In this document: one piece after another, positions 4,946 through 63,435 of the stretch | Numbering within the stretch: the stretch's first letter is position 1 | Layout of the letters: every line of letters starts with the position of its first letter | Assembly (NCBI GenBank): GCA_041660605.1 | Contig: JBAZWB010000001.1 | Location: forward strand, 137,295 to 201,294 | From: Patescibacteria group bacterium | Lineage (GTDB): Bacteria > Patescibacteriota > Patescibacteriia > UBA10025 > JAHIVO01 | Direction: 5' to 3' | DNA length: 64,000 nucleotides | The notes under the pieces: generated by a model | What the model was told of the DNA's origin: nothing | The model's database searches: none | The model's input: only the letters and a program-made list of their open reading frames with translations | Made by a program: the position numbers and the translations under genes

Positions 4946-5207
4946 ATCATTTTATTAAGTTATTGTTTTCGAGAATCTCCGCAAAAGGCGGGATGCGTCA
5001 TCTGGTAATCAATTTTAGGGGTTATAATGGGCGAAAGAGGAGTCGCCACGCCCGCTTCGACGCAGCTGCGTCTGCAGCGAGTCGGGCGGGAACCTCCACG
5101 GGATTGCTCCCACACGGCCCTGCCACCGCCATACGGCGGGGTCCCACCTCCATTTGATTGAAAATATTGTAGCGGGAAACCGTGTGTATTGCTATTGTAA
5201 ATTTTAA

Positions 5208-5262
5208 TTGGTGCCGGAGAGAGGAATTGAACCTCCAAGCCCTTGCGGGCACACGGCCCTCC
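5208..5262 (-). other. tRNA-like 3' fragment (variable arm, T-arm, acceptor 3' strand, encoded CCA); no matching 5' half found
   Basis: Minus strand reads ...GCCCGCAAGGGCTTGGAGGTTCAATTCCTCTCTCCGGCACCA. T-arm and ACCA end are clear, but no 5' acceptor or D-arm could be folded in the 124 nt before tRNA-Leu. Confidence 0.35.
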
Positions 5263-5332
5263 GCCTTTGCCCTCATTATATTCGGGCTATGGCGGACAGG
5301 TGAACAGTGCGCTTCGTGCCTGCCTGTGCCTA

Positions 5333-5416
5333 TGCCGAGAAGAGGACTCGAACCTCCATGGGCTTGCGCCCGCTAGCTCCTGAAGCTAGTGCGTCTACCA
5401 AATTCCGCCATCTCGG
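5333..5416 (-). tRNA. tRNA-Leu (anticodon CAG), type II with long variable arm, CCA not encoded
   Basis: Manual fold: acceptor GCCGAGA/TCTCGGC, D-arm GCGG..CGC, anticodon stem CTAGC/GCTAG with loop TTCAGGA, variable arm CGGGCGCAAGCCC, T-arm GGAGG-TTCGAGT-CCTCT. Confidence 0.85.
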
Positions 5417-5487
5417 CTCAGACATAGGTAGGCAGGTTTGCTAACTTGTCCCGTCGAATGACGGGGTTTCACCACTCCGGCAGAAAA

Positions 5488-7320
5488 TTACTGCCAACCC
5501 AATTTAACTTTTATATACCTGTCCTCGATGCCGTTAAAGCGATCGGAGGGTATAGTTATAGGTATATCCTTAATACCTTTAATTTTTTTTGCTGCACCAT
5601 AATTATAATACGGGCTGTAGAGAAAGACTGCGGGAACATCTTCGGCGATAATGTTTTGGAAATCTATGTAGTCCTTCGCCCGATCATCCAAATTATCGGT
5701 TTTTCTGGCTTCTTCGAGTAATTTATCCGCGTCTTTATTATAATAGTTTGATAAATTCAATCCACCGGAAACGCTTTGGCTGGAGTGCCAGAATGGATAA
5801 GGGTCGGGATCGGCGCCTAATATTTCACCGTATAAAAAAGCCTCGTAGGCCCTGGGCTTGATGACTTCCTTATCAATGCGCAGGGGATTCATAATTTTCA
5901 GTTCAATGCCGACGCCGATATTTTCCCAGTTCTCACGCAGGATATCGGCAGTTTTCAGATATTCAGGCTGGTCAACGGTGGTCAGGGAAAATTTAAGTTC
6001 GTTCCCGTCTTTTTGCCTCAGACCGCCTCCTTCAGGCACTTTCCAGCCGGCGTCGTTGAGTATCTGTTCAGCCTTGGCTTTATCAAAATCGTATTTTTTT
6101 ATATCCGGGTTATAGCCTAGAAAACCCTCAAGTATCGGCCCGTTAATGATCTGGCCTTCGTTACTAAGCGCTTCCTGCAAGATCCGGTTTCTATCAGTGG
6201 CGTAGGCCAGCGCCTGCTTTATTTCTTTTACCTTCAGCAGAGGATTTTTTTGGTTAAAAAATATGGCGGTATATTGCGGCAGCCGGAGAGAATAATTTAC
6301 AATATCCTTGTTTTTCCCGAGTGAACCGCTGTAATCTTTTGGGATATAGCTGATGCCGTCAACTTTATTATTTTGCAGAGAGCTGAGCGCGGATTCGAAG
6401 TCAGGATAAAATTTGAAAGTAATTTTTTCGATATAAGGTTTCTGATTGTAATAATCAGGATTCAGAGTCAGTAAATATGATTTTATCGTTCCAGACTGGT
6501 CTTTTACCAGTTCACTGAATTTGTACGGCCCGGAACCGATCGGTTTGGTATTATATTCCGCCAGACGGAAGTTGCTGGCAGTGACATCGCTCCAGATATG
6601 CGCCGGCAAGATGCCGATCGTCAAGTTTGAAAGAAACGGAGAAAATGGTTCATCCAGGCCGAAAGAAACAGTATAGTCATCAACTCTATTTATCGTTACA
6701 CCCTGGAAACTGGCGTAATAAGGGCTGTTAAAATCCGCTTCTTTGATGGTTTCATAAGTATAAACCACGTCGTCGGCCATCAGCGGATTGCCGTTCTGCC
6801 ATTTGACGTCCTGACGGAGATGTATGGTGTAGGTTTTTTTATCTTCTGAAATTTCATAATTCTGGGCCAAATCAGGCAGAAGCTTGAGGTTTTTATCGTA
6901 GCGGAATAATCCCGAGTAAACCAGCCGGGCGATATCGCGATCAATGTCATTCTGGGCCAGAATAGGATTGATATATGATGGCTGGCCAATCAGCGCTTCA
7001 CTGTAGCTACCGCCTGCTTTTGGCAGGTAAATAACGTGGCGCTGGTAAAAGCGAACCACTAAAAATCCGAGACTGGCGATAATCAATAAAAGCAGTACGC
7101 GGATAACTACCGCCTCCTTTTTTGTCAGGTATTTGGGTATATATTGCAGCTGCTGCCAGTTTGGGAAACGCTGCTTAGCCATGGAAAAAACGAGTTTTTT
7201 GTCCAAGTCAGTCTGTTCGGAAACAATTTCCGGTGTTTTTACCTGGCTATTGTCTGACTTTTGTCTTTTCCGAAAGATGTTTTTAGCCTGCGAAAATATT
7301 TTTGATACGTTCAGTTTCAA
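5488..7320 (-). CDS. ABC transporter substrate-binding protein, family 5 (oligopeptide/dipeptide-type), N-terminal membrane anchor
   Basis: 610 aa, N-terminal TM segment, SBP_bac_5-like sequence pattern through the mature domain. Confidence 0.7.
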   Translation of the reverse strand: MKLNVSKIFSQAKNIFRKRQKSDNSQVKTPEIVSEQTDLDKKLVFSMAKQRFPNWQQLQYIPKYLTKKEAVVIRVLLLLIIASLGFLVVRFYQRHVIYLPKAGGSYSEALIGQPSYINPILAQNDIDRDIARLVYSGLFRYDKNLKLLPDLAQNYEISEDKKTYTIHLRQDVKWQNGNPLMADDVVYTYETIKEADFNSPYYASFQGVTINRVDDYTVSFGLDEPFSPFLSNLTIGILPAHIWSDVTASNFRLAEYNTKPIGSGPYKFSELVKDQSGTIKSYLLTLNPDYYNQKPYIEKITFKFYPDFESALSSLQNNKVDGISYIPKDYSGSLGKNKDIVNYSLRLPQYTAIFFNQKNPLLKVKEIKQALAYATDRNRILQEALSNEGQIINGPILEGFLGYNPDIKKYDFDKAKAEQILNDAGWKVPEGGGLRQKDGNELKFSLTTVDQPEYLKTADILRENWENIGVGIELKIMNPLRIDKEVIKPRAYEAFLYGEILGADPDPYPFWHSSQSVSGGLNLSNYYNKDADKLLEEARKTDNLDDRAKDYIDFQNIIAEDVPAVFLYSPYYNYGAAKKIKGIKDIPITIPSDRFNGIEDRYIKVKLGWQ

Positions 7321-10477: not shown

Positions 10478-10546
10478 ACGTTCTGCTCTATTGACCGAGA
10501 TTTCTCCGCTCCTCTTCGGCTACGCTCAGAGTCGGTCGAAATGACA
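10478..10546 (+). repeat. Solo copy of the structured repeat family (acgtt..tgct...cgagatttctcc-N-tcggtcgaaatgaca) also present at 25.3, 26.0 and 29.6 kb
   Basis: About 52 nt nearly identical to 25297-25346 and 25469-25520. Confidence 0.8.
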
Positions 10547-22714: not shown

Positions 22715-25117
22715 ATGGCAAAAAAAATGAACAGGCAGATAAAAACAATTCTTTGGTTTAATGAAATCGGCATCAAAGATGTGCCCCTGGTTGGCGGCAA
22801 AAACGCTTCCCTGGGTGAAATGTACCGCAATCTGGTGCAGAAAGGCGTATTGGTACCCAACGGCTTCGCCATTACGGCCAGCGCTTATTTTTATTTAATA
22901 AAAGAAGCGGGCATCATGCAGCGCATACGCCAGATATTATCCGACCTGAATACCAAGAGTCTGAAAAATTTAATGGTACGCGGCGCAAAGGTTCGTCAGA
23001 CGATTTTACACGCTGAAATACCGGCGGATTTAAAACAGGAAATCGTCGTTTCCTATAGAAAATTAGAAAAAAAATACGGGAAGAACTGCGATGTAGCGGT
23101 TCGTTCTTCTGCAACAGCTGAAGATCTACCCGATGCTTCGTTCGCCGGACAGCAGGAGACCTATCTGAACATCCGCGGCGAGAAGGCACTGCTGGAAGCC
23201 TGCAAAAAATGTTTTGCCTCTTTATTTACCAACCGCGCTATTTCTTACCGCGTAGACAAAGGCTTTGACCATTTCAAAATCGGCCTGTCCATCGGCGTGC
23301 AGAAAATGGCTCGTTCGGACAAGGCCTGCTCCGGCGTGATGTTTTCCATTGATACCGAATCAGGATTTAAAAATGCAGTATTGATAAACGGTTCCTGGGG
23401 GCTAGGTGAAAATATCGTGCAGGGCGCGGTTACTCCGGATGAATTCTATATTTTCAAACCCACGCTGGATAAATACAAGCCGATTTTAACGAGAAAGCTG
23501 GGCACCAAGCTTATAAAAATGGTGTACAGCACCGGCGCGCAGCCGACTAAGAATATTCCCACTACTACCGAGGAAAGGAATAAATACGTTTTAACGGACA
23601 AGGAAATTCTACAGCTGGCCAAATGGGCGGTAGTCATTGAAAAACATTACAAAAAACCCATGGACATGGAATGGGCTAAGGATGGAGTTGATAATAAGCT
23701 TTATATTGTACAAGCGCGCCCGGAAACCGTGCAGTCCCAGCGCGACATGTCCGTTCTGGAAGAATATCAGCTGGGCAAGAAGGGGAAAGTGCTGGCAGTC
23801 GGTTCGCCGGTTGGAGCGAAGATTGGATCCGGCACTGCGCGGGTAATCTTTGACGTAAAAAATATTAGCGAATTTAAAAAAGGCGAGGTGCTAGTTACCG
23901 ATATGACGGATCCGGACTGGGAGCCGATCATGAAAATCGCCTCGGCCATTATAACTAACCGCGGCGGACGTACCTGCCACGCGGCCATCATTTCCCGCGA
24001 ACTCGGCATTCCCTGCATCGTCGGTACCGGTAACGCCACTCGCCTGATAAAAACCGGCCGCAAAGTAACCGTTTCCTGCGCCGAAGGCGAGGAAGGCTAT
24101 GTTTATGACGGCATTATGCCTTATAAAGTGAAAAGGACTAATCTGAAAAAGCTAGGCCGCCCGCGCACCAAGATTATGATGAATATCGGCACTCCGGAAA
24201 TGGCTTTCAGCCAGAGCTTCATACCGAATGACGGCGTGGGTTTGGCGCGCGAGGAATTTATCATTTCCAGCTATATCAAAATTCATCCGCAGGCTTTATT
24301 AAAATATCCAAGATTGAAAGATAAGAAAGCTGTTAAGCAGATCGCTGAACTTACCGCTATGTATAAAAATAAACCGCAATATTATGTAGATAAACTGGCC
24401 TCTGGCCTGGCCTTGATTGGCGCGGCTTTCTACCCCAAGGACGTGATTTTCCGCCTGGCTGATTTCAAATCCAATGAATATGCTAACCTTATCGGCGGCA
24501 AGGAATTTGAACCGGTAGAGGACAATCCTATGATCGGCTGGCGCGGTGCTTCCCGCTATTACGACGAGAATTACAAGGCGGCTTTCGCCCTGGAGTGCCA
24601 GGCTTTTAAGAAAGTCCGTGACGGAATGGGTCTCCATAACATCAAAGTAATGGTACCGTTCTGCCGTACGGTGGAGGAAGGCAAGAAAGTTATCGCGGAA
24701 ATGGCTAAAAACGGGCTGAAACACGGCGAAAAGGGTTTGGAAATATATGTGATGTGCGAAATACCCTCCAATGTCATTATCGCCGAGGAGTTCTGCAAAA
24801 TTTTTGATGGGTTTTCCATCGGCACCAATGATTTAACCCAGTTAACCCTGGGAGTTGACCGCGATTCAGAGCTGGTCGCCCATGTCTATGACGAACGCAA
24901 TCTGGCGGTGAAAAGGCTGGTCTCGGGAATTATCAGGGCGGGTAAAAAATATCACCGCAAGGTTGGTATCTGCGGTCAGGCGCCGTCTGATTATCCGGAA
25001 TTCGCCAGGTTTATCACCAAAGAGGGCATTGACAGTATGTCATTAAATCCTGATACGATAATTAAAACCACCATTGATATTATCAAGACGGAGAAGTCGC
25101 TGAAAAAGAGAAAATAA
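22715..25117 (+). CDS. ppsA: Phosphoenolpyruvate synthase (pyruvate, water dikinase)
   Basis: 800 aa; ATP-grasp N-terminal region, mobile phospho-His domain (GGRTCHAAIISRELGIPCIVG), PEP-utilizing C-terminal barrel. Confidence 0.9.
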   Translation: MAKKMNRQIKTILWFNEIGIKDVPLVGGKNASLGEMYRNLVQKGVLVPNGFAITASAYFYLIKEAGIMQRIRQILSDLNTKSLKNLMVRGAKVRQTILHAEIPADLKQEIVVSYRKLEKKYGKNCDVAVRSSATAEDLPDASFAGQQETYLNIRGEKALLEACKKCFASLFTNRAISYRVDKGFDHFKIGLSIGVQKMARSDKACSGVMFSIDTESGFKNAVLINGSWGLGENIVQGAVTPDEFYIFKPTLDKYKPILTRKLGTKLIKMVYSTGAQPTKNIPTTTEERNKYVLTDKEILQLAKWAVVIEKHYKKPMDMEWAKDGVDNKLYIVQARPETVQSQRDMSVLEEYQLGKKGKVLAVGSPVGAKIGSGTARVIFDVKNISEFKKGEVLVTDMTDPDWEPIMKIASAIITNRGGRTCHAAIISRELGIPCIVGTGNATRLIKTGRKVTVSCAEGEEGYVYDGIMPYKVKRTNLKKLGRPRTKIMMNIGTPEMAFSQSFIPNDGVGLAREEFIISSYIKIHPQALLKYPRLKDKKAVKQIAELTAMYKNKPQYYVDKLASGLALIGAAFYPKDVIFRLADFKSNEYANLIGGKEFEPVEDNPMIGWRGASRYYDENYKAAFALECQAFKKVRDGMGLHNIKVMVPFCRTVEEGKKVIAEMAKNGLKHGEKGLEIYVMCEIPSNVIIAEEFCKIFDGFSIGTNDLTQLTLGVDRDSELVAHVYDERNLAVKRLVSGIIRAGKKYHRKVGICGQAPSDYPEFARFITKEGIDSMSLNPDTIIKTTIDIIKTEKSLKKRK

Positions 25118-25275
25118 ATTCAGTTTAAATTTTAAACCGGTTGCTATATGGCAGCCGGTTTTTCATTTAATCCTGATGGTTTTTAGTCGTGGTTTTGTTG
25201 CAATCAGCTGTGCCTGTTGTATTGACTAAAGGTTTTAAACGGGAGGCTAGCGGAGACATATTGGTTAAAAACCGC

Positions 25276-25645
25276 TTACGTTGCTAATCTTTAATCGAGA
25301 TTTCTCCACTCCTCTTCGGCTACGCTCAGAGTCGGTCGAAATGACAGACGTTTGTTCTGGTAAAACCCTTATGACAGGCACTTACGTTTGTCGCCTCGAC
25401 CGATCCCGTCATCCTTCGGTGAGTGGTAGGAGTCCCCGTTGGACACAACTAACGTTGCTAATCTTCAACCGAGATTTCTCCGCTCCTCTTCGGCTACGCT
25501 CAGAGTCGGTCGAAGTGACACACGCCGATGGATTATCAACACCGAGCTACAAACTCAACCAACGCCTGTCACCTCGACCGAGTCACGCGGAGCGTGATGA
25601 GTGGAGAGGTCTCTGTAAATGCCACCTCACTCATTCATACCACCC
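25276..25645. repeat. Array of structured modular repeats (two tandem units containing cgagatttctcc...tcggtcgaa[a/g]tgaca plus tgtcNcctcgaccga inverted modules) that abuts and overlaps the 3' end of the GIY-YIG gene
   Basis: Internal tandem copies at 25297-25346 and 25469-25520; homologous to 10478-10546, 26015-26300 and 29569-29925. Confidence 0.8.
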
Positions 25646-25924
25646 CTCGCTCAAATCATTCCAACAGGGATTCATATTATTAATTAACCATTCTTTTTTT
25701 CCCCGTCGCCACCGTTTTATTTGTTTTTCCCTTTGTATCGCCACAAAAATATCGTCATGCACTTCGTAATACACTAGCTTGTTAACATTATACTTATTAG
25801 TAAAACCAGGATTTACTTTAGTCTTATGTTGCCAAACCCGACTTTCAAGATTTGAAGTCACCCCGACATACAAAACATTCTTTCTTTTATTAGTCAAAAT
25901 ATAAACGTAATATTGCCTTGCCAT
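25631..25924 (-). CDS. Small GIY-YIG nuclease-domain protein (YhbQ/UPF0213-like, 97 aa)
   Basis: YYVYILTN...LYVGVT..L..R..QH motif. Confidence 0.8.
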   Translation of the reverse strand: MARQYYVYILTNKRKNVLYVGVTSNLESRVWQHKTKVNPGFTNKYNVNKLVYYEVHDDIFVAIQREKQIKRWRRGKKEWLINNMNPCWNDLSEGWYE

Positions 25925-26014
25925 AATAAAAATTCCTTCCGTTTGGGGAAGGCTATGCTGTTATGCTACTACTTTTTCGAATGTTGTCAAATACTACCAG
26001 CATTTTTTATTCAA

Positions 26015-26300
26015 GCCGAGATTTCTCCACTCCCACCGCTTGCGCGGCGGTCGGTCGAAATGACAGACGTTTGTTCAGGTAAAACCCTAATGACTGGCAT
26101 TCACGCTTGTCATGTCGACCCCCTCGACTACGCCCCTTCGATAAACTCAGAGGCTACGCTCGGGGCAGGCTTTACGGAGACATCTCTGTTAATTACCACC
26201 CACGTTATTCGCCCTAATCGAGATTTCTCGACGAAGTTTACCCTGAGCATAGCCGATGTGCTCGAAGTGACAAATATGGCGGATAAAAAAAGAAACGGTT
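26015..26300. repeat. Second locus of the modular repeat family, including an inverted copy of the ccccgagcgtagcc...ggggcgtagtcgaggg module and a terminal AACGGTTGC/GCAACCGTT hairpin
   Basis: Shares cgagatttctc, tcggtcgaaatgacagacgtttgtt, gtgacaaNNtggcggataaaaa with loci B and D; one module is the reverse complement of its copy in locus D. Confidence 0.8.
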
Positions 26301-26726
26301 GCTTTCTAGGGCAACCGTTCTGTAGGTGTAAAAATCCAATACTAAAGGAAGCTATTAATCTCGGCTAGAGACTAATAGACTCCCGGACTTGGTCGTCAAG
26401 TGAACCTAGAGGGGAAAAATCTTTTCCAGTCCAGTGCTCCCTTGGTAGGGATATGTATGCCATCCCATGCAACTTTTAGCCGGGCGGCACACACTAGGCA
26501 CACAAAGCTCCTGCAGAGGAGCAGACCAATGTCCGGGAAGGATCGATGCAGCAAATTAATGTACATAGATTTCCCTCCACGGTTATTCTTCAATTAGGAT
26601 AGCAGTTGCATTTTATTTGTCAATTTTTTAACGAATTATTACTGGCAATTACGCTTGACTTAAGGCCTGGACTTTGTTAGGATTTTTTAATTAGTTCTTT
26701 GATATCATAACAAATGGAGACAGAAA

Positions 26727-29045
26727 ATGACGCAAATTGTCGGTTTCGAGTTTGAGGAAGTAGTAGTAGTCGCGGAAAGCCCACACGATATTTTTTCTCC
26801 CCAGCTGCGCAAAGCCGGCATCAAATACAAAAGATGTTCGGAACGCGAGGCGCGGGAGTTAATACTCGGAGATTCTGCGCTTATCATTGTCGTGAATTTA
26901 GGCGCTGAAAAAGTAGGCGAGCGGTTAAGAGCTCTATTTCCCCGAGCGCAGGTAGTTGTCTGTACCGGCGGCGAGAAGGTTTTTGATCCGCGGGTAGTCG
27001 TAGTGCACGGGAAAGGCGAGCATGACCTGCACCGCTTTTCCGACTGGGGAGGCTTTATCAGGCTTATTGGCCAACGGTTAAAGCCGCTGCCCAGGATTTT
27101 CACGCCGGTTCCCGGAGGGCACGACCTGTTTACTTATCTTCAGCCGGAGGAAGATGACTATGCGTACTGTCCGCAAGGGCTCAGCGACGCTTCCGGCACT
27201 ATGCTGAATATGTCCATAGTTTATCTGCGCTGGTACCGGCAGTGGCTGGAGGATGTCAGCAAAATTTCTTTTGATTGCCACTTCAGTTTTTCCGGCAAGA
27301 AAAGAAAAGTCAGGCGCGTGACGGTGCTGGTGGATGAAGTGACATTTATTCATCTTGGGCTGCCGATTTTCCACGAGGAAGACCGGGTGACATTCTTTGA
27401 CTCTGGCGGCAACGAGCACCGGGCTATTGTTGAGCGCATCGGCGATGAAGAAATGAAACTGTATTTTCCGGAAGAGTTGGACCGTTTTGTCGCGGAAGAT
27501 CTGGTTTTTTTCCAGAGAGATGTGGACAACGGCCTGATTGAGGCGCAACTGCAGCTTTGCGAGAATTTTACCACGGGCATGATTGCCAATTATTCCCTTC
27601 CCTGGCTAGTGGCTACCGGCCAGTACAGAAATCAGCAGGCTGACCCGCAAGATAGAGTTTGCTTGCCTGAACGTGAATGGCGCAGGCTGTCCCAGGACCG
27701 TTCGCAGTGTTTGGCCCTGGTTGACATGGTTGGGACGGCTAATTTGGTTTTTACCAATGGACCAGCCGGTACGGGCAAGACTTTCGTTATCTCGCAAGCC
27801 ATACCCCAAAATATCAGTCGCAGGAAAGTCACGCTAGTGCTATCCCATTCCAACAGGGGACTGGATAATATGATAGCCGCCATTGCCAAGCGGTTTACTG
27901 ATCATCGTCTTATTTATCGCCTGGGCAATAGCCAGGATAGCGTGGCTCCAGAGGCACTGCCTTTTCACCGGAGCCAGCGCTTCCGCGGTCCTGACGATAG
28001 GCCGTATCCAGAGGCACGGCAGGCTATGGAGGAGACTCGTAACATTTTGGAGCAATTAGATTTTGGCGACGGCATTGTCATTGGGTGCACCTTGACCTCG
28101 TTCTGGCTGGATAAGACGATGCTAGCTTTGCAGAAGAGCGGGATCCGGTTCCAGGTCGCTTATGTGGACGAAGCTTCGCGCTGCTATTTCTTTGAGCTGC
28201 TGCCTATCCTGCGCGCGGTGGCGGAAAAAGTCATTTTTGTCCTTGATCCCGAACAGCTGGGCAATATCGGCTTGTCTCCCCAGGCTAAGGATCACTTGGT
28301 GCAAAAAGGTTTTGAACCCGGGCAAATTGACGAATTCTTGGCAGGCTGGCCGGCCAGTGTCATTAAGAAGCGCCTGCTTAATTCCAGGATGCTGACAGTC
28401 AACAGGCGTTCCTTGCCTGTGATTTGCCGGCTGGTTAGTGAGGTTTTTTACGACGGTGAGCTTGAATCCGGACGTTTTGATCCGAATAATTCCGGGCAGG
28501 TTATTTTCTACGATACGGCCGCCGCGCAGGATAAGGGCCAGGAACGGCATCACAAATCTTTCAAGAATAGGCGTGAGGCTAATATAGCCGTTAGCTATGT
28601 TGTTAAACGCCTGGCTGCCGGCACAGCGCCAGATCAGATTGGGATTATTACTCCTTACCGGGGACAGATCGGCCTGATCCGGGGCAAGCTACGGCAAGAA
28701 TTGCTTTTTAACGACAAGCTGAAAGCGGTTCGCCAGCGGTATAACATTAACGCTGAAACTATTGATGCCATAGCCACTGCCATGGTGGATACGGTGGATG
28801 CTTTCCAGGGATCAGAGCGGACAGAGATAATCCTAAGCTTCGTCCGCTCAAATGACGAAGGCGACGTGGGTTTCAACCGCTTCGTCAACCGTTTATTGGT
28901 GGCGTTCTCGCGAGCCCGCAACCGCCTGGTGATAATCGGGGATACGCAGACTTTCCTGGCTTCGGAATTTCCAGAAGTGGTCAGGATATTCAAGCAGGTA
29001 ATTGAGTACGTGAAAAAGTATGGTACATACGTGGAGGTAAAATAA
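26727..29045 (+). CDS. Superfamily-1 helicase, Upf1/DNA2-like (AAA_11/AAA_12-type), with an unrecognised N-terminal region of about 330 aa
   Basis: Walker A FTNGPAGTGKTF, Walker B-like VDEASRC, C-terminal VDAFQGSER...NRLLVAFSRARNRLVIIGD; GC-richer than surroundings. Confidence 0.75.
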   Translation: MTQIVGFEFEEVVVVAESPHDIFSPQLRKAGIKYKRCSEREARELILGDSALIIVVNLGAEKVGERLRALFPRAQVVVCTGGEKVFDPRVVVVHGKGEHDLHRFSDWGGFIRLIGQRLKPLPRIFTPVPGGHDLFTYLQPEEDDYAYCPQGLSDASGTMLNMSIVYLRWYRQWLEDVSKISFDCHFSFSGKKRKVRRVTVLVDEVTFIHLGLPIFHEEDRVTFFDSGGNEHRAIVERIGDEEMKLYFPEELDRFVAEDLVFFQRDVDNGLIEAQLQLCENFTTGMIANYSLPWLVATGQYRNQQADPQDRVCLPEREWRRLSQDRSQCLALVDMVGTANLVFTNGPAGTGKTFVISQAIPQNISRRKVTLVLSHSNRGLDNMIAAIAKRFTDHRLIYRLGNSQDSVAPEALPFHRSQRFRGPDDRPYPEARQAMEETRNILEQLDFGDGIVIGCTLTSFWLDKTMLALQKSGIRFQVAYVDEASRCYFFELLPILRAVAEKVIFVLDPEQLGNIGLSPQAKDHLVQKGFEPGQIDEFLAGWPASVIKKRLLNSRMLTVNRRSLPVICRLVSEVFYDGELESGRFDPNNSGQVIFYDTAAAQDKGQERHHKSFKNRREANIAVSYVVKRLAAGTAPDQIGIITPYRGQIGLIRGKLRQELLFNDKLKAVRQRYNINAETIDAIATAMVDTVDAFQGSERTEIILSFVRSNDEGDVGFNRFVNRLLVAFSRARNRLVIIGDTQTFLASEFPEVVRIFKQVIEYVKKYGTYVEVK

Positions 29046-29568
29046 GTAAAAAAATAGGGTGGCTGTGGCAAACAGTCACCCTTTAGTTTTTTGGTCAGGT
29101 CCAAGCTTTATTAAATGCCTTGCAAGTTGCATATAATATTTTTGCCTATACCCCTTCGAATGCCATCAGTGAGGTAAGGAAGCCAGTTAACGTAAGCGTT
29201 AACCTAGTAAAAGGACCGGACCCCTCTTCGAACTCCACCGTGGGTCTTCGCCGTAGTCAACTGCTCATCGCCGTCATGACATATATGATAAGAAGACCAT
29301 TGGCCGTGCAACCACCTACGAATTGCACTGACCAGCTGCCTGCTCCCAGAGAGATTTTCTCTCTTGAACAGGGGCGGAATTGAAGAGGAAATGAACCCTG
29401 CTGGGACTATCCCAAAAGCGAACCTTTGAGAAAGTAGCATTAGAGAACCTCCTCCCTATTCCAGAAATGTAACCGTCCGTACACTAGGCACTGCGACTGT
29501 TACGTGCATATCTTAGCAGAATAAATAATACTGTCAAGGGATTTTTAATGAATTTGAACTCACGCGAT

Positions 29569-29925
29569 TGTCTCCTCGACCGATCCCGTCATCCGTCAGG
29601 GGAGTGGCGGGAACCTCCGTTAAACATAACTAACTTTGTTAATCTCCAAGTCGAGATTTCTCCATTCGTCCTCGTTCCACTCGGGCTCAGTCGAAATGAC
29701 ATGCGTTTTTTGACGACAAACAACACTTGATAAAACCACCCACGTCTGTCATGTCGACCGAGTTACGCGTAGCGTGATGAGCGGAGACATCTCGGTTAAA
29801 CACCACCTCAGCCAGCCCTAACCGAGATTTCTCCATTCAATCTGCCCCGAGCGTAGCCTCTGAGTTTATCGAAGGGGCGTAGTCGAAGGGCTCGAGGTGA
29901 CAAGCGTGGCGGATAAAAAGAGGCG
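29569..29925. repeat. Third large locus of the modular repeat family
   Basis: Contains tgtcNcctcgaccgatcccgtcatcc, aactaacNttgNtaatct..cgagatttctcc, tcagtcgaaatgaca and ggtgacaagcgtggcggataaaaag modules. Confidence 0.8.
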
Positions 29926-30145
29926 GCAATCGTATAAGTTCCATTGGCATGAACCCCCCTTGTTTTATAATCAAAGGGTGGTATGATATACTGATTTTAG
30001 GCATTTTTTAACAAAAAGATGCAGAGGTGAGTTTAACTACGTTTTTTAAGAAGCTGCATCTAAAGTGCAATCAAAGCGGAGAGGTCGCCCCGCCTCCGTA
30101 AAAACTCCGGCGGGGCAGGCATAGTGTAATATATTTCATCAGAAT

Positions 30146-30213
30146 GGAGGGATCGCATAGTTGGTCTAGTGCGCACGCCCCGAAGAATACTCGCTTCGCT
30201 CGTATCTACGGGG
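30146..30213 (+). pseudogene. Partial duplicate of the tRNA-Ser 5' end (29 nt, 30146-30174, 2 mismatches) fused to a CCCCG...CGCTTCGCTC...CGGGG hairpin element (30175-30213)
   Basis: ggagggatcgcatagttggtctagtgcgc versus ggaagggtcgcatagttggtctagtgcgc of the intact tRNA 90 nt downstream. Confidence 0.7.
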
Positions 30214-30267
30214 TAAACTTGGAAAGTAGTTTTTAAAAAAGCAGATATTATTTATTGGGCTCGGAGC

Positions 30268-30356
30268 GGAAGGGTCGCATAGTTGGTCTAGTGCGCTTGC
30301 TTGGAAAGCAAGTAAAGGCCAAAAGCCTTTCGCGAGTTCGAATCTCGCCCCTTCCG
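30268..30356 (+). tRNA. tRNA-Ser (anticodon GGA), type II, CCA not encoded
   Basis: Manual fold: acceptor GGAAGGG/CCCTTCC, D-arm GCAT..GTGC, anticodon stem CTTGC/GCAAG with loop TTGGAAA, variable arm AAAGGC-caaaa-GCCTTT, T-arm GCGAG-TTCGAAT-CTCGC. Confidence 0.8.
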
Positions 30357-30384
30357 CTCCGGATCTTATTAGATAGTATAGTTG

Positions 30385-30480
30385 GTTTTAAGTTCGCCAC
30401 GTCATCCTGTCATCCGACAGGACATATCCGACGTGGCGCCCCGAGTTTATCTTGGGGCGAATCTTTACCCCGCTGAATAG
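30385..30480. repeat. Nested hairpins (GCCACGTC..CCTGTC-atccga-GACAGG..GACGTGGC; CCCCGCT-gaat-AGCGGGG) and a terminal 17-nt segment that is the inverted repeat of 30137-30153
   Basis: tccctccgttctgatga (30464-30480) is the reverse complement of tcatcagaatggaggga (30137-30153) with 1 mismatch. Confidence 0.55.
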
Positions 30481-30889
30481 CGGGGCCTTTCCCTCCGTTC
30501 TGATGAAGTAAACCGCAGGTTTGAATCTTACAACAATAATTTGATTTATGCGAAATTAAATCATTTTAATCATTATAGCCGCAATGATTTTAGAAGCTTT
30601 AGTGTTAACCGTGATTATATTTTCAGACACCTCTTACGTGATCCAAATTATTGAATCAAAAGAAGAATACAAAGAACTCTCAATTCCAAACAGTGGTTAT
30701 CTTTAAGAATAGCCGGCAAGTTTTAGTTAAAAAAATATTTTTTTCTAATTTTGACACTAATCTTATAAAAAACTATAATTAAAGCACGTAATCCTTAATA
30801 AAATAGCGGATCAGAGCAAAACCGATATTGCATTATAATATGACATGAAAAGCGCTGAAAAAAAGTTACAAAATATTTAATCAACAAAT

Positions 30890-32905
30890 ATGAATGAGAA
30901 TTTTAAGGCGATAGAGGACTGGATAGCGCAAGCCCGCACTGCCGGTCTTTCTGACAATCAAATTTCAGATCAGCTTCGCAACAGCGGCTGGCAGGAAAGC
31001 CAAATTGCACAATTTATCAAGAATGAAGTTTCCGGAGTTTCTCACCCGGGCACACCCGCCCGAGATTACACTTTCCCAGTGAAGGGTATGAAAAATGTCG
31101 GCACTTCTGCGACGGAACTAAGGCAAAAGCCCTGGCTTTTACGGCACACCGCGTTATTATTCGGGGTGCTTGGGGGCATTCTCATCATTGGCGGTACTGC
31201 CTTTGCCGCGGTACAAGGATATATTCAAATTCCATTTATTTCTAATAGCAATAAACTGCTGACCCAGGCAATAAAACGCCTGGAAACCGTGGAAAGCGGC
31301 GAATTCGGCATTGTTTTCAGCATTGCTACTGAACCGCGCACTCCAGATGCAGTTCCATGGCCAAAAAATTCGAATATAGATGAGGGTATGGATGATTTTT
31401 CCCTAGATTTTACTGATATGATCCCGGCCGATGTCGCGCTTGAAGGCGTCATCACCACATTTATGAATACAGATTCCGCTGATTTGCAGAAACTCCGCGG
31501 CATTCTTACAGCAAAGGGCTCTTACCGCAGCTCAGGTACGACAATGAGCATGGACTTAGAGGCAAGGATCGTTGATGGACTGGGCTACCTTCTCGTGCGG
31601 CAATTTCCCGCCCTTCCTTTTGTGGATACCAGTCCATTCGTTGGAAAGTGGATATCACTGAATACAAAGGGGGATTCAACTGCGGATGATTTTCTTAGCG
31701 CCTATACGCCTGATAATGTAAATGTGTCAGAGGAATCAAAAAAGGTAAAAATTGAGGCAGCAGCTATTTTCCGGCTAGCGCTCTCCACGAAGGCTCTCTC
31801 TGCCGCAAACAGCGGTAGCGAGAAGCTGGACGGGCACGCTACGAAAAAAATTACCCTGACGATTAACCCTGAAAAAATTCCTGCGTTCCTGGCGGCTTAC
31901 CGTGATGATGCTGACAAGCGAGGCGTCTCCACGGCGTATGTCGATGAAACCCTGCAAGAATTAAAAGATCCGAAATACCTCGAACTTATCCGGGCAATGG
32001 CGAGCAACCTGCGCATTACAGTCTGGATCGACAGTGCGGATCATACTCCCCGAAAAGCCGAGTACTCGCAAATTATAGTACCAGATGAGACTGCCACGAA
32101 CTTCAAGGATAAACAGATCCATGCGACATTTGGATTCACGCTTGATCATGTCAATGAACAGCCTAACGTCGAAGCGCCAAAGGACGCTGTTACGCTTGAA
32201 ACAGTTCTTGAGCCGGTGTTAGCTGGACCTCGCGCTAAGTCCCGGAACGCACAGCGCAAATCCGATATTGGACAATTGAGGACCGCGCTTATTCTGTATT
32301 ATGATGATAATACCCACTACCCAAAAGATATAAATGAGGTGGCCGAAAAACCAAATCAGACTATCAGCCAGATGCCTGTCCCGCCATTGCCAAATGAGAT
32401 ATATGCGTACACTCCCACAGAAGACCTTTCGGGTTTTACTATCTGTGCAACTCTCGAGGATGTAGGGGAGGGCGCAGGGAAATACTGTTATGACCAGGCC
32501 GGAATTTTAACAGAAACTCCCGGAAACTCATTGGCTGGCCCGACGGATTTATTTTCTGAGCCAGGGCAAAGAAATGAAAAACGATTAGCAGACCTAAAAA
32601 AACTTCGGGAAGGGGTTTTGCTTTTCTATGATTATGAAAATCAAATGCCAAAATCATATACGGATCTGCTGAGGCATACCCCGCCTGTTATTGAGGGCGT
32701 CGCGCCGCCAGTACAAGGTGAAATGTATAAATACACCCTGTTAGATGGCGTAAAACGGGACTTCAGCGTATGCGCGGATTTTGAAAACTCAGTAGAATAT
32801 GAAGCTGGTCAGTATTGCTTTGAAACCGCAAAACCGAATGCCCTTATCCAAAAAGGCGTAAATGGCGGCATTGACATTGAAATTGTGGGTGATTATAACA
32901 GCTAG
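30890..32905 (+). CDS. Membrane-anchored protein (671 aa) with two tandem pseudopilin/type-IV-pilin head-like motifs in the C-terminal half
   Basis: TM segment around aa 88-110; SRNAQRKSDIGQLRTALILYYDDNTHYP and QRNEKRLADLKKLREGVLLFYDYENQMP resemble the region just after the N-terminal helix of Parcubacteria-type pilins (recalled consensus ARDARR.ADLKQIQTALELYYDDNGSYP). Confidence 0.6.
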   Translation: MNENFKAIEDWIAQARTAGLSDNQISDQLRNSGWQESQIAQFIKNEVSGVSHPGTPARDYTFPVKGMKNVGTSATELRQKPWLLRHTALLFGVLGGILIIGGTAFAAVQGYIQIPFISNSNKLLTQAIKRLETVESGEFGIVFSIATEPRTPDAVPWPKNSNIDEGMDDFSLDFTDMIPADVALEGVITTFMNTDSADLQKLRGILTAKGSYRSSGTTMSMDLEARIVDGLGYLLVRQFPALPFVDTSPFVGKWISLNTKGDSTADDFLSAYTPDNVNVSEESKKVKIEAAAIFRLALSTKALSAANSGSEKLDGHATKKITLTINPEKIPAFLAAYRDDADKRGVSTAYVDETLQELKDPKYLELIRAMASNLRITVWIDSADHTPRKAEYSQIIVPDETATNFKDKQIHATFGFTLDHVNEQPNVEAPKDAVTLETVLEPVLAGPRAKSRNAQRKSDIGQLRTALILYYDDNTHYPKDINEVAEKPNQTISQMPVPPLPNEIYAYTPTEDLSGFTICATLEDVGEGAGKYCYDQAGILTETPGNSLAGPTDLFSEPGQRNEKRLADLKKLREGVLLFYDYENQMPKSYTDLLRHTPPVIEGVAPPVQGEMYKYTLLDGVKRDFSVCADFENSVEYEAGQYCFETAKPNALIQKGVNGGIDIEIVGDYNS

Positions 32906-63187: not shown

Positions 63188-63435
63188 ATGGCACAAGCCC
63201 CATACCAGAGCTCACCTTTGGCTAGCTCCCATCGGGCCTGAGCCCTCAGGGCCGAAGGCAGGGTCATATGGTACGGGGTTAAAGAGCGGTAAAATGGCTT
63301 TTATACGATTATAAAAAGATTAAGTAAATAGATAAGCAATGGCACAGGATAATATCGACCCCGCACCAAAGCTCCCCTTCGACTCCGCTCCTTCAACAAG
63401 TTCAGGAGCTTCGCTCAGGGTCGCTTGATGCGGGG
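63188..63435 (+). repeat. Two decayed duplicates of the dnaG 5' end (63188-63197, 10 nt; 63339-63358, 20 nt), each fused to a CCCC...GGGG hairpin element (63198-63278; 63359-63435)
   Basis: atggcacaag / atggcacaggataatatcga versus the true start atggcacaagataatatcga at 63493; element 2 contains the CTTCGCTC core. Confidence 0.7.

What the first reader, a model, noticed from the sequence alone, without database searches (positions are those of the whole stretch)
25118..30267. Accessory island between ppsA and tRNA-Ser: GIY-YIG nuclease plus Upf1/DNA2-like SF1 helicase with unknown N-terminal domain
The 5.1-kb interval is gene-poor, repeat-rich and GC-heterogeneous. It ends at a tRNA gene with a partial tRNA duplicate, the classic signature of an integration hotspot. 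It encodes a standalone GIY-YIG nuclease flanked on both sides by the repeat arrays. It also encodes a 772-aa SF1 helicase (Walker A GPAGTGKTF, VDEAS, Upf1-like C-terminus) whose first ~330 aa match nothing I recognise. Nuclease-plus-Upf1-like-helicase combinations recur in anti-phage systems such as Nhi-like, Hachiman-like and Gabija-like systems, so this may be a defence or mobile module.
Basis: partly seen in the sequence, partly recalled or inferred. Interest (0 to 1): 0.65.

Follow-up and report, generated by a model that had tools for sequence, protein, structure and literature searches.

The report
Conserved helicase beside inserted Ssn module
This stretch is not a defence island: it holds a helicase gene that sits at the same spot in related genomes, plus a small, separately mobile nuclease gene with its own hairpin repeats, a kind of element first described in 2025.

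Summary
The window is from a Patescibacteria (CPR) genome. The order ppsA, helicase, tRNA-Ser(GGA) is conserved in relatives (L012; ppsA-helicase in L009). Those relatives lack the GIY-YIG gene and the repeats. More distant family members sit beside polA/ddl or ftsH.

The helicase is a lineage-restricted Upf1/IGHMBP2-like SF1B helicase. Residues about 150-320 are the usual Upf1 stalk and 1B barrel. Only residues 1-145 are new: a small alpha/beta domain found only in this family, with no nuclease fold. No defence partner gene is present.

The 97-aa GIY-YIG protein is an SsnA-type single-domain nuclease (Chenal 2025). It is 51-55% identical to proteins flanked by canonical NTS hairpins. Here it is flanked, in the same inverted layout, by an extended variant of that hairpin, 12 units in the interval. 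A 92%-identical copy with the same repeats lies at an unrelated locus in another genome. Its GC is 35% against about 48% for the window.

The partial tRNA copy does not bound the interval. It belongs to an unexplained nested structure around the tRNA.

The parts
22715..25117 (+). ppsA (PEP synthase), the left-hand conserved neighbour
   Evidence: Pfam PPDK_N, PEP-utilizers and PEP-utilizers_C. It is 71% identical to the L012 ppsA fragment.
25134..25161 (+). ppsA intrinsic terminator. The inserted DNA starts after it.
   Evidence: 12-bp stem followed by a T run.
25250..25620 (.). Hairpin-repeat cluster A, 3' of the GIY-YIG gene. Units in alternating orientation: a degenerate unit ending at 25264(+), 25295-25346(-), 25389-25437(+), 25469-25520(-), 25567-25615(+).
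   Evidence: Unit consensus is TGTC|ANNTC GACCGA ...20-55 nt... GGA GAN'N'T|CTCGG, with NN and N'N' covarying.
25631..25924 (-). ssnA-like gene: a 97-aa single-domain GIY-YIG nuclease. Predicted catalytic residues are Y8, Y19, R29, H33, E66, N85.
   Evidence: PF01541, E 1.3e-17. It is 51-55% identical to proteins flanked by canonical NTS repeats, and the listed residues are invariant. GC is 0.35.
25963..25990 (-). Promoter-like site of the GIY-YIG gene (TTGACA-16-TAGCAT)
   Evidence: 10 of 12 positions matched.
26016..26272 (.). Hairpin-repeat cluster B, 5' of the GIY-YIG gene. Units: 26016-26065(-), 26108-26188(+, long type), 26218-26272(-).
   Evidence: Together with cluster A it reproduces the layout seen at NTS-flanked homologues: sense unit upstream, antisense unit downstream.
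26293..26640 (-). Small minus-strand unit upstream of the helicase. Promoter-like site at 26596-26623, GGAGG then ATG at 26566, a 56-aa ORF running to 26396, and a terminator at 26293-26320.
   Evidence: (called as a gene in L002). Function unknown. No family hit.
26655..26683 (+). Helicase promoter-like site (TTGACT-17-TAGGAT). The sequence around it is conserved in L012.
   Evidence: Compare the sequences (GCTTGAC...AATTAGTTCTTT in both).
26727..29045 (+). 772-aa Upf1/IGHMBP2-like SF1B helicase. Residues 1-145 are a family-specific alpha/beta domain. Residues about 150-305 are stalk helices plus the 1B barrel. Residues about 310-772 are RecA1 and RecA2 with motifs I to VI intact.
29056..29082 (.). 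Bidirectional terminator shared by the helicase and the convergent small ORF
   Evidence: There is an A run before the stem and a T run after it.
29204..29537 (-). Convergent small gene: promoter-like site TTGACA-16-TAAGAT at 29510-29537, GGAGG ribosome-binding site, 78-aa ORF at 29204-29440.
   Evidence: (called in L002). An equivalent unit follows the helicase in all 8 distinct loci examined.
29569..29905 (.). Hairpin-repeat cluster C, with no nuclease gene. Units: 29569-29620(+), 29651-29701(-), 29747-29795(+), 29822-29905(-, long type). The last is 88% complementary to 26102-26191.
   Evidence: (I1).
29944..29971 (+). Promoter-like site (TTGGCA-16-TATAAT) that could drive the tRNA transcript
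   Evidence: 11 of 12 positions matched.
30132..30510 (+). Nested structured element around tRNA-Ser. The outer 21-nt inverted repeat is 30132-30152 / 30490-30510. The partial tRNA 5' copy is at 30145-30174. Leader and trailer extend the acceptor stem of the real tRNA (30268-30357).
   Evidence: D9, I5, I13; MFE -180.4 kcal/mol, z -11.7.

Best explanation
The interval is a composite of unrelated parts, not one system.

(1) The helicase is a vertically inherited, lineage-restricted gene of Patescibacteria. It has its own promoter and terminator and occupies its ancestral site between ppsA and tRNA-Ser(GGA). It is a Upf1/IGHMBP2-type SF1B helicase, so it is inferred to be an ATP-driven 5'-to-3' translocase on single-stranded nucleic acid. 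It carries a family-specific N-terminal alpha/beta domain, inferred to be regulatory or a partner-binding domain. Its likely role is housekeeping DNA or RNA metabolism. That role is an inference from its neighbours only.

(2) An Ssn-type module of about 1.1 kb has been inserted into the ppsA-helicase spacer. It consists of a 97-aa single-domain GIY-YIG endonuclease gene bracketed by inverted clusters of its cognate hairpin repeat. A nuclease-less cluster of four such repeats has been inserted into the helicase-tRNA spacer.

By homology with Neisseria SsnA, the nuclease is inferred to bind the hairpin only when the repeat is single-stranded DNA. It would read the conserved GTC 5' of the stem and the C just 3' of it, and cut a few bases upstream. 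The repeats are inferred to spread and cluster in alternating orientation, as REP/BIME elements do. Nuclease and helicase are neighbours by accident of insertion.
For: Shown: synteny.
- The order ppsA, helicase, tRNA-Ser(GGA) is conserved in L012, with spacers of 467 and 518 nt against 1609 and 1222 nt here.
- L009 is collinear over 8 genes and has a 293-nt spacer.
- Removing about 25164-26295 leaves about 477 nt, close to the L012 spacer.
- Other family members lie beside polA/ddl (L003, L006, L010, L076) or ftsH/L32/nusB/rnc (L074).
- Helicase GC matches the host genes, here and in the relatives.

Shown: helicase fold.
- AF2 model with pLDDT 84. PDB profile hits to Upf1 (4e-43) and IGHMBP2 (1.7e-39, aligned from residue 206).
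- Foldseek TM up to 0.70, normalised by target length, to the Upf1 and IGHMBP2 cores.
- The N-terminal domain occurs in only 50 clusters among 1.84 billion representatives, almost always at the N-terminus of proteins of 750-1000 aa.

Shown: the nuclease module.
- No repeat units occur in any locus of a helicase relative.
- L021 carries a copy that is 92% identical in protein (93% for the 84-aa gene call). It has 3 and 2 flanking units of the same repeat, between pilin and ABC-transporter genes. 779 nt align at 75% across repeats and gene.
- 14 published-SRM matches lie within 500 nt of 8 of 52 homologous genes: 0.30 per kb near the gene against 0.008 per kb further away. They are in a '+' upstream, '-' downstream orientation. 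Those proteins are 51-55% identical to the window protein.
- Many other homologues carry longer variants of the GTC...stem...AATC type.
- Four fully complementary stem variants occur among 14 units: TT/AA, TG/CA, CT/AG and CC/GG.
- Y8, Y19 and E66 have the same spacing as the mutated Nm residues Y6, Y17 and E64 (PMC11893778).

From the paper: SsnA cuts only ssDNA near its hairpin. The bases before the stem and the C after it are critical. The NTS-ssnA-NTS layout resembles IS and REP/BIME elements.
Against: - The published SRM search pattern gives 0 hits in the window. The local repeat is a longer variant of 50-85 nt, so the cognate relationship is inferred from layout, shared flank signature and homology, not shown.
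- CDD class cd10448 and direct similarity to Nm SsnA could not be tested.
- No biochemical data exist for this protein.
- Repeat units flank the helicase on both sides, so some functional interplay cannot be excluded. One possibility is a helicase that exposes ssDNA hairpins.
- The helicase role is inferred from neighbourhood only. It evolves fast (42% identity where ppsA is 71%), which is also seen in conflict genes.
Confidence: 0.75

Rival explanations
1. The interval is an integrated accessory or defence island in which the GIY-YIG nuclease and the Upf1-like helicase work together, as in Nhi, Hachiman, Gabija or Mokosh.
For: - PADLOC MkoA hit at 2.5e-57, with weak GajB and Nhi hits.
- NCBIfam gives weak hits to anti-phage helicases.
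- The region is gene-poor, repeat-rich and next to a tRNA.
Against: - The MkoA hit covers only the helicase core (profile positions 616-1099 of 1112). No PLD nuclease, Ser/Thr kinase domain, HamA or GajA is present in any ORF nearby.
- The helicase is syntenic in relatives that lack the nuclease.
- The nuclease recurs without the helicase.
- The two genes are on opposite strands, have separate promoters and differ in GC.
- No integrase is present, and no tRNA direct repeat lies at the far end of the interval.
Confidence: 0.04
2. The helicase alone is a conserved, chromosomally fixed immune or surveillance helicase, in effect an orphan Mokosh-like sensor. The N-terminal domain, or the small convergent peptide gene, would act as effector or regulator.
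For: - The closest profile is MkoA.
- It diverges fast relative to ppsA (42% against 71%).
- A small convergent ORF with a hydrophobic N-terminus follows it in all 8 distinct loci examined.
- The N-terminal domain is family-specific.
Against: - Its neighbours are housekeeping genes and its position is stable within clades.
- No effector domain is recognisable.
- No full-length relatives were found in viral contigs.
- The small ORFs are barely conserved in sequence.
Confidence: 0.12
3. The GIY-YIG gene is a free-standing homing endonuclease that targets a specific dsDNA site. On this view the repeats are unrelated MITE-like or terminator-like elements.
For: - Weak hits to group I intron and homing endonuclease models, all below their cut-offs.
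- The gene is absent from the orthologous sites.
Against: - At 97 aa the protein has no DNA-binding domain.
- No intron was detected (Rfam).
- Gene and repeats travel together.
- Homologues are flanked by canonical NTS hairpins.
- The stem covaries while the GTC and C flanks stay fixed.
Confidence: 0.04
4. The repeats act mainly as RNA: structured transcripts, attenuators or terminators that regulate the helicase and its neighbours. They would not be ssDNA targets of the nuclease.
For: - The stems covary.
- The clusters lie in transcribed spacers on either side of genes.
Against: - Units occur in both orientations in strict alternation. That fits a DNA element better than an RNA element.
- Nm SsnA does not act on RNA.
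- No Rfam family matches.
- The predicted fold energies are modest, -4 to -10 kcal/mol.
Confidence: 0.05

Closest known systems
SsnA with NTS/SRM repeats (Ssn family of site-specific ssDNA endonucleases; Chenal et al., Nat Commun 2025, PMC11893778)
   Same: - A single-domain GIY-YIG protein of about 95 aa with the same spacing of catalytic Tyr, Tyr and Glu.
- The gene is bracketed by inverted hairpin repeats.
- The repeat has GTC immediately 5' of the stem and C immediately 3' of it.
- Extra repeat clusters lie around other genes.
- The protein is 51-55% identical to proteins flanked by near-consensus NTS, such as CGTCATTCCCGCGAAAGCGGGAATCCAG.
   Different: - The repeat is 50-85 nt, with a 5-bp outer stem, an internal mismatch and a variable inner hairpin. 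NTS is about 28 nt.
- The published SRM pattern does not match it.
- The host is a Patescibacteria genome, a phylum the paper does not mention.
- Only about 13 units occur in 64 kb, nearly all next to the gene. Activity is untested.
REP/BIME elements with RAYT (Y1) transposases
   Same: - Short imperfect palindromes lie clustered in alternating orientation in intergenic DNA.
- They flank the gene of the enzyme presumed to act on their ssDNA hairpin form.
- Nuclease-less clusters also occur elsewhere.
   Different: The enzyme is a GIY-YIG nuclease, not an HUH/Y1 transposase. No strand-transfer chemistry is known for it.
Upf1-like SF1B helicases (Upf1, IGHMBP2, Sen1/SETX, Dna2)
   Same: The protein has two RecA domains with all motifs, two stalk helices and a 1B beta-barrel inserted before RecA1.
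   Different: - It has no CH, R3H, nuclease or other known accessory domain.
- Instead it has a 145-aa alpha/beta domain found only in this family.
- It is bacterial, confined to a Patescibacteria lineage, and about 20% identical to the solved structures.
Mokosh MkoA/MkoC (Millman et al. 2022, bioRxiv 10.1101/2022.05.11.491447)
   Same: A COG1112/Upf1-like helicase core, which is the best PADLOC hit.
   Different: - It has no Ser/Thr kinase domain, no PLD nuclease domain and no MkoB neighbour.
- It is in housekeeping synteny rather than a defence island.

Membership tests
Ssn family (SsnA-type GIY-YIG ssDNA endonucleases) | Single-domain GIY-YIG protein of about 90-100 aa with catalytic Tyr, Tyr and Glu | tested here: met
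   97 aa, with PF01541 as the only domain. Y8, Y19, R29, H33, E66 and N85 are invariant in the alignment with homologues. The spacing matches Nm Y6, Y17 and E64.
Ssn family (SsnA-type GIY-YIG ssDNA endonucleases) | Homology to SsnA proteins / CDD class cd10448 | tested here: inconclusive
   The protein is 51-55% identical over its full length to proteins whose genes are flanked by near-consensus NTS. It matches the UPF0213 structure 1ZG2 only weakly (E 0.036). The Nm SsnA sequence and CDD were not available, so the formal criteria were not run.
Ssn family (SsnA-type GIY-YIG ssDNA endonucleases) | Gene flanked on both sides by SRM hairpin repeats, using the published pattern HGTCWYN(0-2)YYVSBRHN(0-5)WNVSBRGN(0-2)RNCYNB | tested here: not met
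   0 matches in the window, against 0.22 in shuffles. The local repeats keep the GTC|stem|C signature and the inverted flanking layout, but they are too long for the pattern.
Ssn family (SsnA-type GIY-YIG ssDNA endonucleases) | Gene and cognate hairpin repeat co-occur and co-vary between genomes | tested here: met
   The same repeat family flanks the 92%-identical gene in L021. Other homologues carry their own variants in the same positions.
Ssn family (SsnA-type GIY-YIG ssDNA endonucleases) | Site-specific cleavage of ssDNA only, near the hairpin | not testable with these tools
   This needs purified protein and oligonucleotide substrates.
Mokosh (types I and II) | COG1112/Upf1-like helicase together with a PLD-family nuclease, as a separate MkoB or fused. 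Type I MkoA also carries a Ser/Thr kinase domain. | tested here: not met
   Only the helicase core matches. Neither the protein nor any neighbouring ORF has a PLD or kinase domain. Definition taken.
Nhi (nuclease-helicase immunity) | A nuclease domain fused N-terminally to the SF1 helicase | tested here: not met
   The N-terminal model (pLDDT 84) has no significant PDB neighbour (best E 3.9e-3, TM at most 0.39). Its weak neighbours are SIS, receiver and BRCT-like alpha/beta folds. The PADLOC Nhi hit is E 0.0033 with no stretch passing on its own. The Nhi definition is from my own knowledge.
Hachiman / Gabija | HamA nuclease with an SF2 HamB helicase, or GajA (OLD-type ATPase-Toprim) with a UvrD-like GajB helicase, encoded as adjacent co-oriented genes | tested here: not met
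   There are no HamA, HamB or GajA hits. GajB hits are limited to the Walker A region (E 2e-5 and weaker). The neighbours give no PADLOC hits.
tRNA-targeted integrative island | An integrase gene, and a direct repeat of part of the tRNA at the far end of the inserted DNA | tested here: not met
   The interval has no integrase or recombinase ORF. The only tRNA fragment lies 122 nt from the tRNA, and none lies near 25118. The cargo helicase is present at the same site in relatives.
Upf1-like SF1B helicases | RecA1 and RecA2 with motifs I to VI, plus stalk helices and a 1B barrel | tested here: met

The most novel reading that the evidence does not exclude
The 'partial tRNA duplicate' may be half of an older tRNA-Ser gene that was split when a self-contained tRNA cassette inserted into it. 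The cassette would be a complete tRNA-Ser(GGA) whose leader and trailer pair to extend the acceptor stem. The window's only other tRNA, tRNA-Leu(CAG), shows the same nested layout, with an outer 3' half that has a variable arm, a T arm, an acceptor and CCA. That would point to a previously undescribed way of replacing or propagating tRNA genes in this Patescibacteria lineage, or to a tRNA-in-tRNA transcript with its own processing pathway. Tandem triplication followed by decay explains much of the same data.
Probability: 0.12. Interest if true: 0.7.

Novelty: new variant of a known kind. Interest (0 to 1): 0.33.

Why it matters
- It removes a false defence-island candidate. It also shows a trap for guilt-by-association calls in CPR genomes: a nuclease next to a helicase near a tRNA can be an accident of insertion.
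- It places the newly described Ssn nuclease and hairpin-repeat system in Patescibacteria. The hairpin variant here is longer than the published search pattern can detect, so Ssn-associated repeats are probably under-counted.
- These repeats also generate spurious ORF calls.
- It defines a small Patescibacteria-restricted Upf1-like helicase family. The family has a private N-terminal domain and an ever-present convergent small ORF. Neither is a major surprise, but each can be tested directly.

Tried and rejected
- The published SRM pattern gave 0 hits on the window. I did not treat this as excluding Ssn, because homologues with 51-55% identity carry canonical NTS and intermediates exist.
- My own generalised 'GTC + exact 6-nt arm ... 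reverse complement + C' scan returned only noise, because the local stems are imperfect.
- Rfam found only the tRNAs at gathering threshold over the whole window and at E<=1 over 25100-30900. The anti-hemB hit at 27.6 bits is below its cut-off of 49.5 bits and looks like a chance hit on three hairpins.
- ARAGORN with intron and pseudogene options found no outer tRNA. Its low-threshold 'tRNA-Arg with intron' call on the opposite strand overlaps the real tRNA and was discarded.
- The repeat-core scan of viral contigs returned almost only single matches per contig (one contig had two), as expected by chance.
- A look-up of P0018, the 92%-identical GIY-YIG, found no record.
- RNAalifold on three spacers downstream of the helicase was inconclusive. 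The peptide alignment of the small ORFs is weak.
- I considered a cryptic PD-(D/E)xK or HNH nuclease in helicase residues 1-330. I rejected it on fold and on the invariant residues F23, V56, N57, G81, G82, F86 and D100. These include only one acidic residue and no His, Lys or Cys of the kind those active sites need.


Full report
**What is there**

The window comes from a Patescibacteria (CPR) metagenome-assembled genome. The helicase is recorded at NCBI as 'MAG: DEAD/DEAH box helicase [Patescibacteria group bacterium]', and the same contig is in ENA sample ERZ27249449. The interval 25118-30267 starts one base after the ppsA stop and ends one base before tRNA-Ser(GGA). It holds two solid genes:
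- a 97-aa GIY-YIG ORF at 25631-25924 on the minus strand;
- a 772-aa SF1 helicase at 26727-29045 on the plus strand.

Three clusters of one repeat family lie at 25250-25620, 26016-26272 and 29569-29905. The repeat core TGTCAYNTCGAC occurs 8 times in 64 kb against 0.02 expected, and 7 of the 8 are in the interval. GC ranges from 0.35 (GIY-YIG) to 0.52 (helicase and repeats), against 0.48 for the whole window. A 29-36-nt copy of the tRNA 5' end lies 122 nt upstream of the tRNA.

**The helicase is not island cargo**

About eleven full-length homologues exist in the 5.8-billion-protein collection. They are 770-784 aa long, 30-44% identical, and all cover the N-terminus.

The closer relatives keep the same neighbours:
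- In L009 the gene order Wzy_C, Cpn10, Cpn60..., DUF4870, ppsA, helicase is the same as in the window. The ppsA-helicase gap is 293 nt and there is no GIY-YIG gene.
- In L012 the ppsA fragment is 71% identical. It is followed after 467 nt by the helicase (42% identical) and after another 518 nt by tRNA-Ser(GGA).
- The helicase promoter region is recognisably conserved between the window and L012.

The more distant members (30-33% identical) lie in other housekeeping contexts:
- divergent from polA and upstream of ddl and mur genes in three genomes, with polA 3.8 kb upstream in a fourth (L076);
- beside ftsH, rpmF, nusB and rnc in another.

Helicase GC follows the local genome in every case.

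**What the helicase is**

An AlphaFold model built on the family alignment is confident (pLDDT 84, pTM 0.81).
- Residues about 150-305 form two long stalk helices and a beta-barrel.
- Residues about 310-772 form two RecA domains.
- A PDB profile search gives Upf1 (4e-43), IGHMBP2 (1.7e-39, aligned from residue 206), Sen1/SETX, ZNFX1, Dna2 and Aquarius.
- Foldseek aligns about 680 columns to the whole Upf1 and IGHMBP2 cores, with TM up to 0.70 normalised by target length.

Only residues 1-145 are extra.

Modelled alone (pLDDT 84), that domain is a small three-layer alpha/beta fold. Its best PDB matches have E of 3.9e-3 or worse and TM of 0.39 or less. They are SIS, receiver and BRCT-like folds. 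It shows no PD-(D/E)xK or HNH architecture.

A profile of the domain, searched against 1.84 billion representative proteins, finds 50 proteins. Nearly all are 750-1000 aa long with the domain at residues 1 to about 140. It is therefore a private domain of this helicase family.

I infer a 5'-to-3' ssDNA or ssRNA translocase used in housekeeping nucleic-acid metabolism. That inference rests only on family membership and neighbourhood.

**No defence system**

PADLOC gives MkoA at 2.5e-57, but only over the helicase core. Mokosh is defined by a Upf1-like helicase plus a PLD nuclease, and type I MkoA also carries a Ser/Thr kinase domain. None of these extra parts is present in the protein or in any neighbouring ORF. 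GajB and Nhi hits are marginal, and no HamA, HamB or GajA is found.

**What the GIY-YIG gene and the repeats are**

The protein belongs to a very large family: more than 5600 hits at E<1e-5, many at 60-68% identity across phyla.

A literature search led to Chenal et al. 2025 (PMC11893778).
- SsnA of Neisseria meningitidis is a 94-aa single-domain GIY-YIG enzyme.
- It binds the NTS hairpin repeat (CGTCATTCCCGCG...GCGGGAATCYRG) only as ssDNA and cuts a few bases upstream.
- The gene is typically bracketed by its own repeats (NTS-ssnA-NTS).
- The bases just 5' of the stem and the C just 3' of it are critical.

I tested the link from the gene side, using 52 metagenomic loci that encode homologues 38-63% identical to the window protein.
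- The published SRM pattern hits 14 times within 500 nt of the gene and once elsewhere (0.30 against 0.008 per kb).
- The hits fall in 8 loci, typically '+' upstream and '-' downstream.
- The sequences are almost identical to the Neisseria consensus.
- Those proteins are 51-55% identical to the window protein, with Y8, Y19, R29, H33, E66 and N85 invariant.
- Many of the other loci carry longer variants of the same design, for example GTCATTGCGAGG...GGCAATCCCG and a 60-nt form in L038.

The window's own repeat is such a variant: TGTC|ANNTC-GACCGA, then 20-55 variable nt with an inner hairpin, then GGA-GAN'N'T|CTCGG.
- Among 14 units from the window and L021, the two variable stem positions occur as four fully complementary combinations: TT/AA, TG/CA, CT/AG and CC/GG. 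The GTC before the stem and the C after it stay fixed.
- Units alternate in orientation, as in BIMEs.
- In the gene's own orientation, a sense unit lies 92 nt upstream and an antisense unit 16 nt downstream. This is the same layout as at the NTS-flanked homologues.
- The published SRM pattern itself finds nothing in the window, so that formal criterion is not met.

**The module is separately mobile**

- It is missing from the orthologous spacers of L009 and L012, and no unit occurs in any locus of a helicase relative.
- Its GC is 0.35 and its GC3 0.35, against 0.55-0.58 GC3 for the neighbouring genes.
- In L021, a 960-kb contig of a different genome from the same sample, a 92%-identical protein lies between a pilin gene and an ABC transporter. 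It has three units upstream and two downstream.
- 779 nt spanning repeats, gene and repeats align at 75% to window 25469-26229.
- Removing about 25164-26295 from the window leaves a ppsA-helicase spacer of about 477 nt, close to the 467 nt of L012.
- Cluster C after the helicase is a nuclease-less cluster. Its long unit 29819-29908 is 88% complementary to 26102-26191, so the helicase is now bracketed by inverted copies.

**The tRNA end**

The partial copy is not an att-type repeat of a 5-kb island. No tRNA fragment lies near 25118, there is no integrase, and the 'cargo' is ancestral. It is instead part of a compact nested structure.
- The real tRNA's leader and trailer pair over about 23 bp.
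- A 21-nt inverted repeat (30132-30152 / 30490-30510) joins the partial 5' copy (GGAGGGA plus a D arm) to a matching TCCCTCCG 133 nt downstream of the tRNA.
- The 391-nt region folds at -180 kcal/mol, z -11.7.
- The window's other tRNA, tRNA-Leu(CAG), shows a similar layout. It includes an outer 3' half with a variable arm, T arm, acceptor and CCA.
- Seventeen tRNAs in other loci, including the orthologous tRNA-Ser of L012, show nothing comparable.

I could not decide between tandem duplication with decay and insertion of a tRNA cassette into a tRNA gene of the same isotype.

**Other content of the spacers**

- A minus-strand unit follows the helicase convergently: a promoter-like site, GGAGG, a 78-aa ORF and a shared bidirectional terminator.
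- An equivalent small ORF with a hydrophobic N-terminus follows the helicase in all eight distinct loci examined. The peptides are barely alignable.
- A similar unit lies upstream at 26293-26640.
- The long mechanical ORFs 25281-25769 and 25913-26368 run across the repeats. One of them is called as a 141-aa gene in the public record. Both are spurious.

**Verdict**

- The nuclease module is an extended-hairpin variant of the Ssn system described in 2025.
- The helicase is an uncharacterised, lineage-restricted member of the Upf1-like family.
- Overall interest is modest.
- The nested tRNA structures are the one item that remains truly unexplained.

Noticed in passing
window 30132-30510 and window 5195-5500 (minus strand): Both tRNA genes of the window sit inside nested structures. 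Leader and trailer pair to extend the acceptor stem. Around that lie the two ends of a degenerate tRNA-like copy of the same isotype: for Ser, an acceptor plus D arm upstream and a matching 3' acceptor downstream; for Leu, an outer 3' half with variable arm, T arm, acceptor and CCA. Fold z-scores are -11.7 and -4.9. 17 tRNAs in other loci lack this.
   Followed up: partly
window 29204-29537 (minus strand); L003 10447-10674; L006 10553-10768; L012 4188-4432; L009 10418-10702; L010 about 5601-5910 (= L011 2961-3305); L075 2767-2952; L076 9541-9726: A small convergent ORF of 56-114 aa follows the helicase in every family locus examined. It has a hydrophobic N-terminus and its own promoter-like site, and it shares a terminator with the helicase. 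Sequence conservation is weak and there is no family hit. It may be a functional partner or just a recurrent spacer gene.
   Followed up: partly
window 26293-26640 (minus strand): A second minus-strand mini-unit lies upstream of the helicase, with a promoter-like site, GGAGG-ATG, a 56-aa ORF and a terminator. L012 has a similarly organised unit in its ppsA-helicase spacer.
   Followed up: partly
window 26102-26191 and 29819-29908: A 90-nt inverted pair, 88% complementary, of the long repeat type brackets the helicase gene. Recombination between the arms could invert the 3.6-kb segment.
   Followed up: no
window 10495-10546 (minus strand) and 63375-63428: One perfect solitary repeat unit lies just upstream of uvrA. 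A degenerate repeat-related stretch lies near the window end. These are the only copies outside the interval.
   Followed up: partly
window 25281-25769 and 25913-26368; L001 9217-9642: Long ORFs run across the hairpin repeats. One is called as a 141-aa gene in the public assembly. Their translations contain the repeat-derived peptide '...RSVEMTDVCSGKTLMTG...'. They are annotation artefacts.
   Followed up: yes
L021 1420-5562: The 92%-identical GIY-YIG module in the other genome lies directly after a type IV pilus / competence-like gene set (T2SSE ATPase, response regulator, T2SSF, pilin). Neisseria SsnA modulates natural transformation, so this may or may not be a coincidence.
   Followed up: no
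window 33379-53412: A single 6677-aa ORF rich in repeated Thr, Gly, Asn and Ser segments lies about 3 kb downstream of the tRNA. It looks like a giant surface or adhesin-like protein. The public record gives only a faint PelX_Ig hit.
   Followed up: no
L012 (CAZVMV010000006.1): The genome holding the closest GTDB relative of this Patescibacteria-type locus is titled 'uncultured Gammaproteobacteria bacterium' in its record. The label looks doubtful given the gene content and synteny.
   Followed up: no
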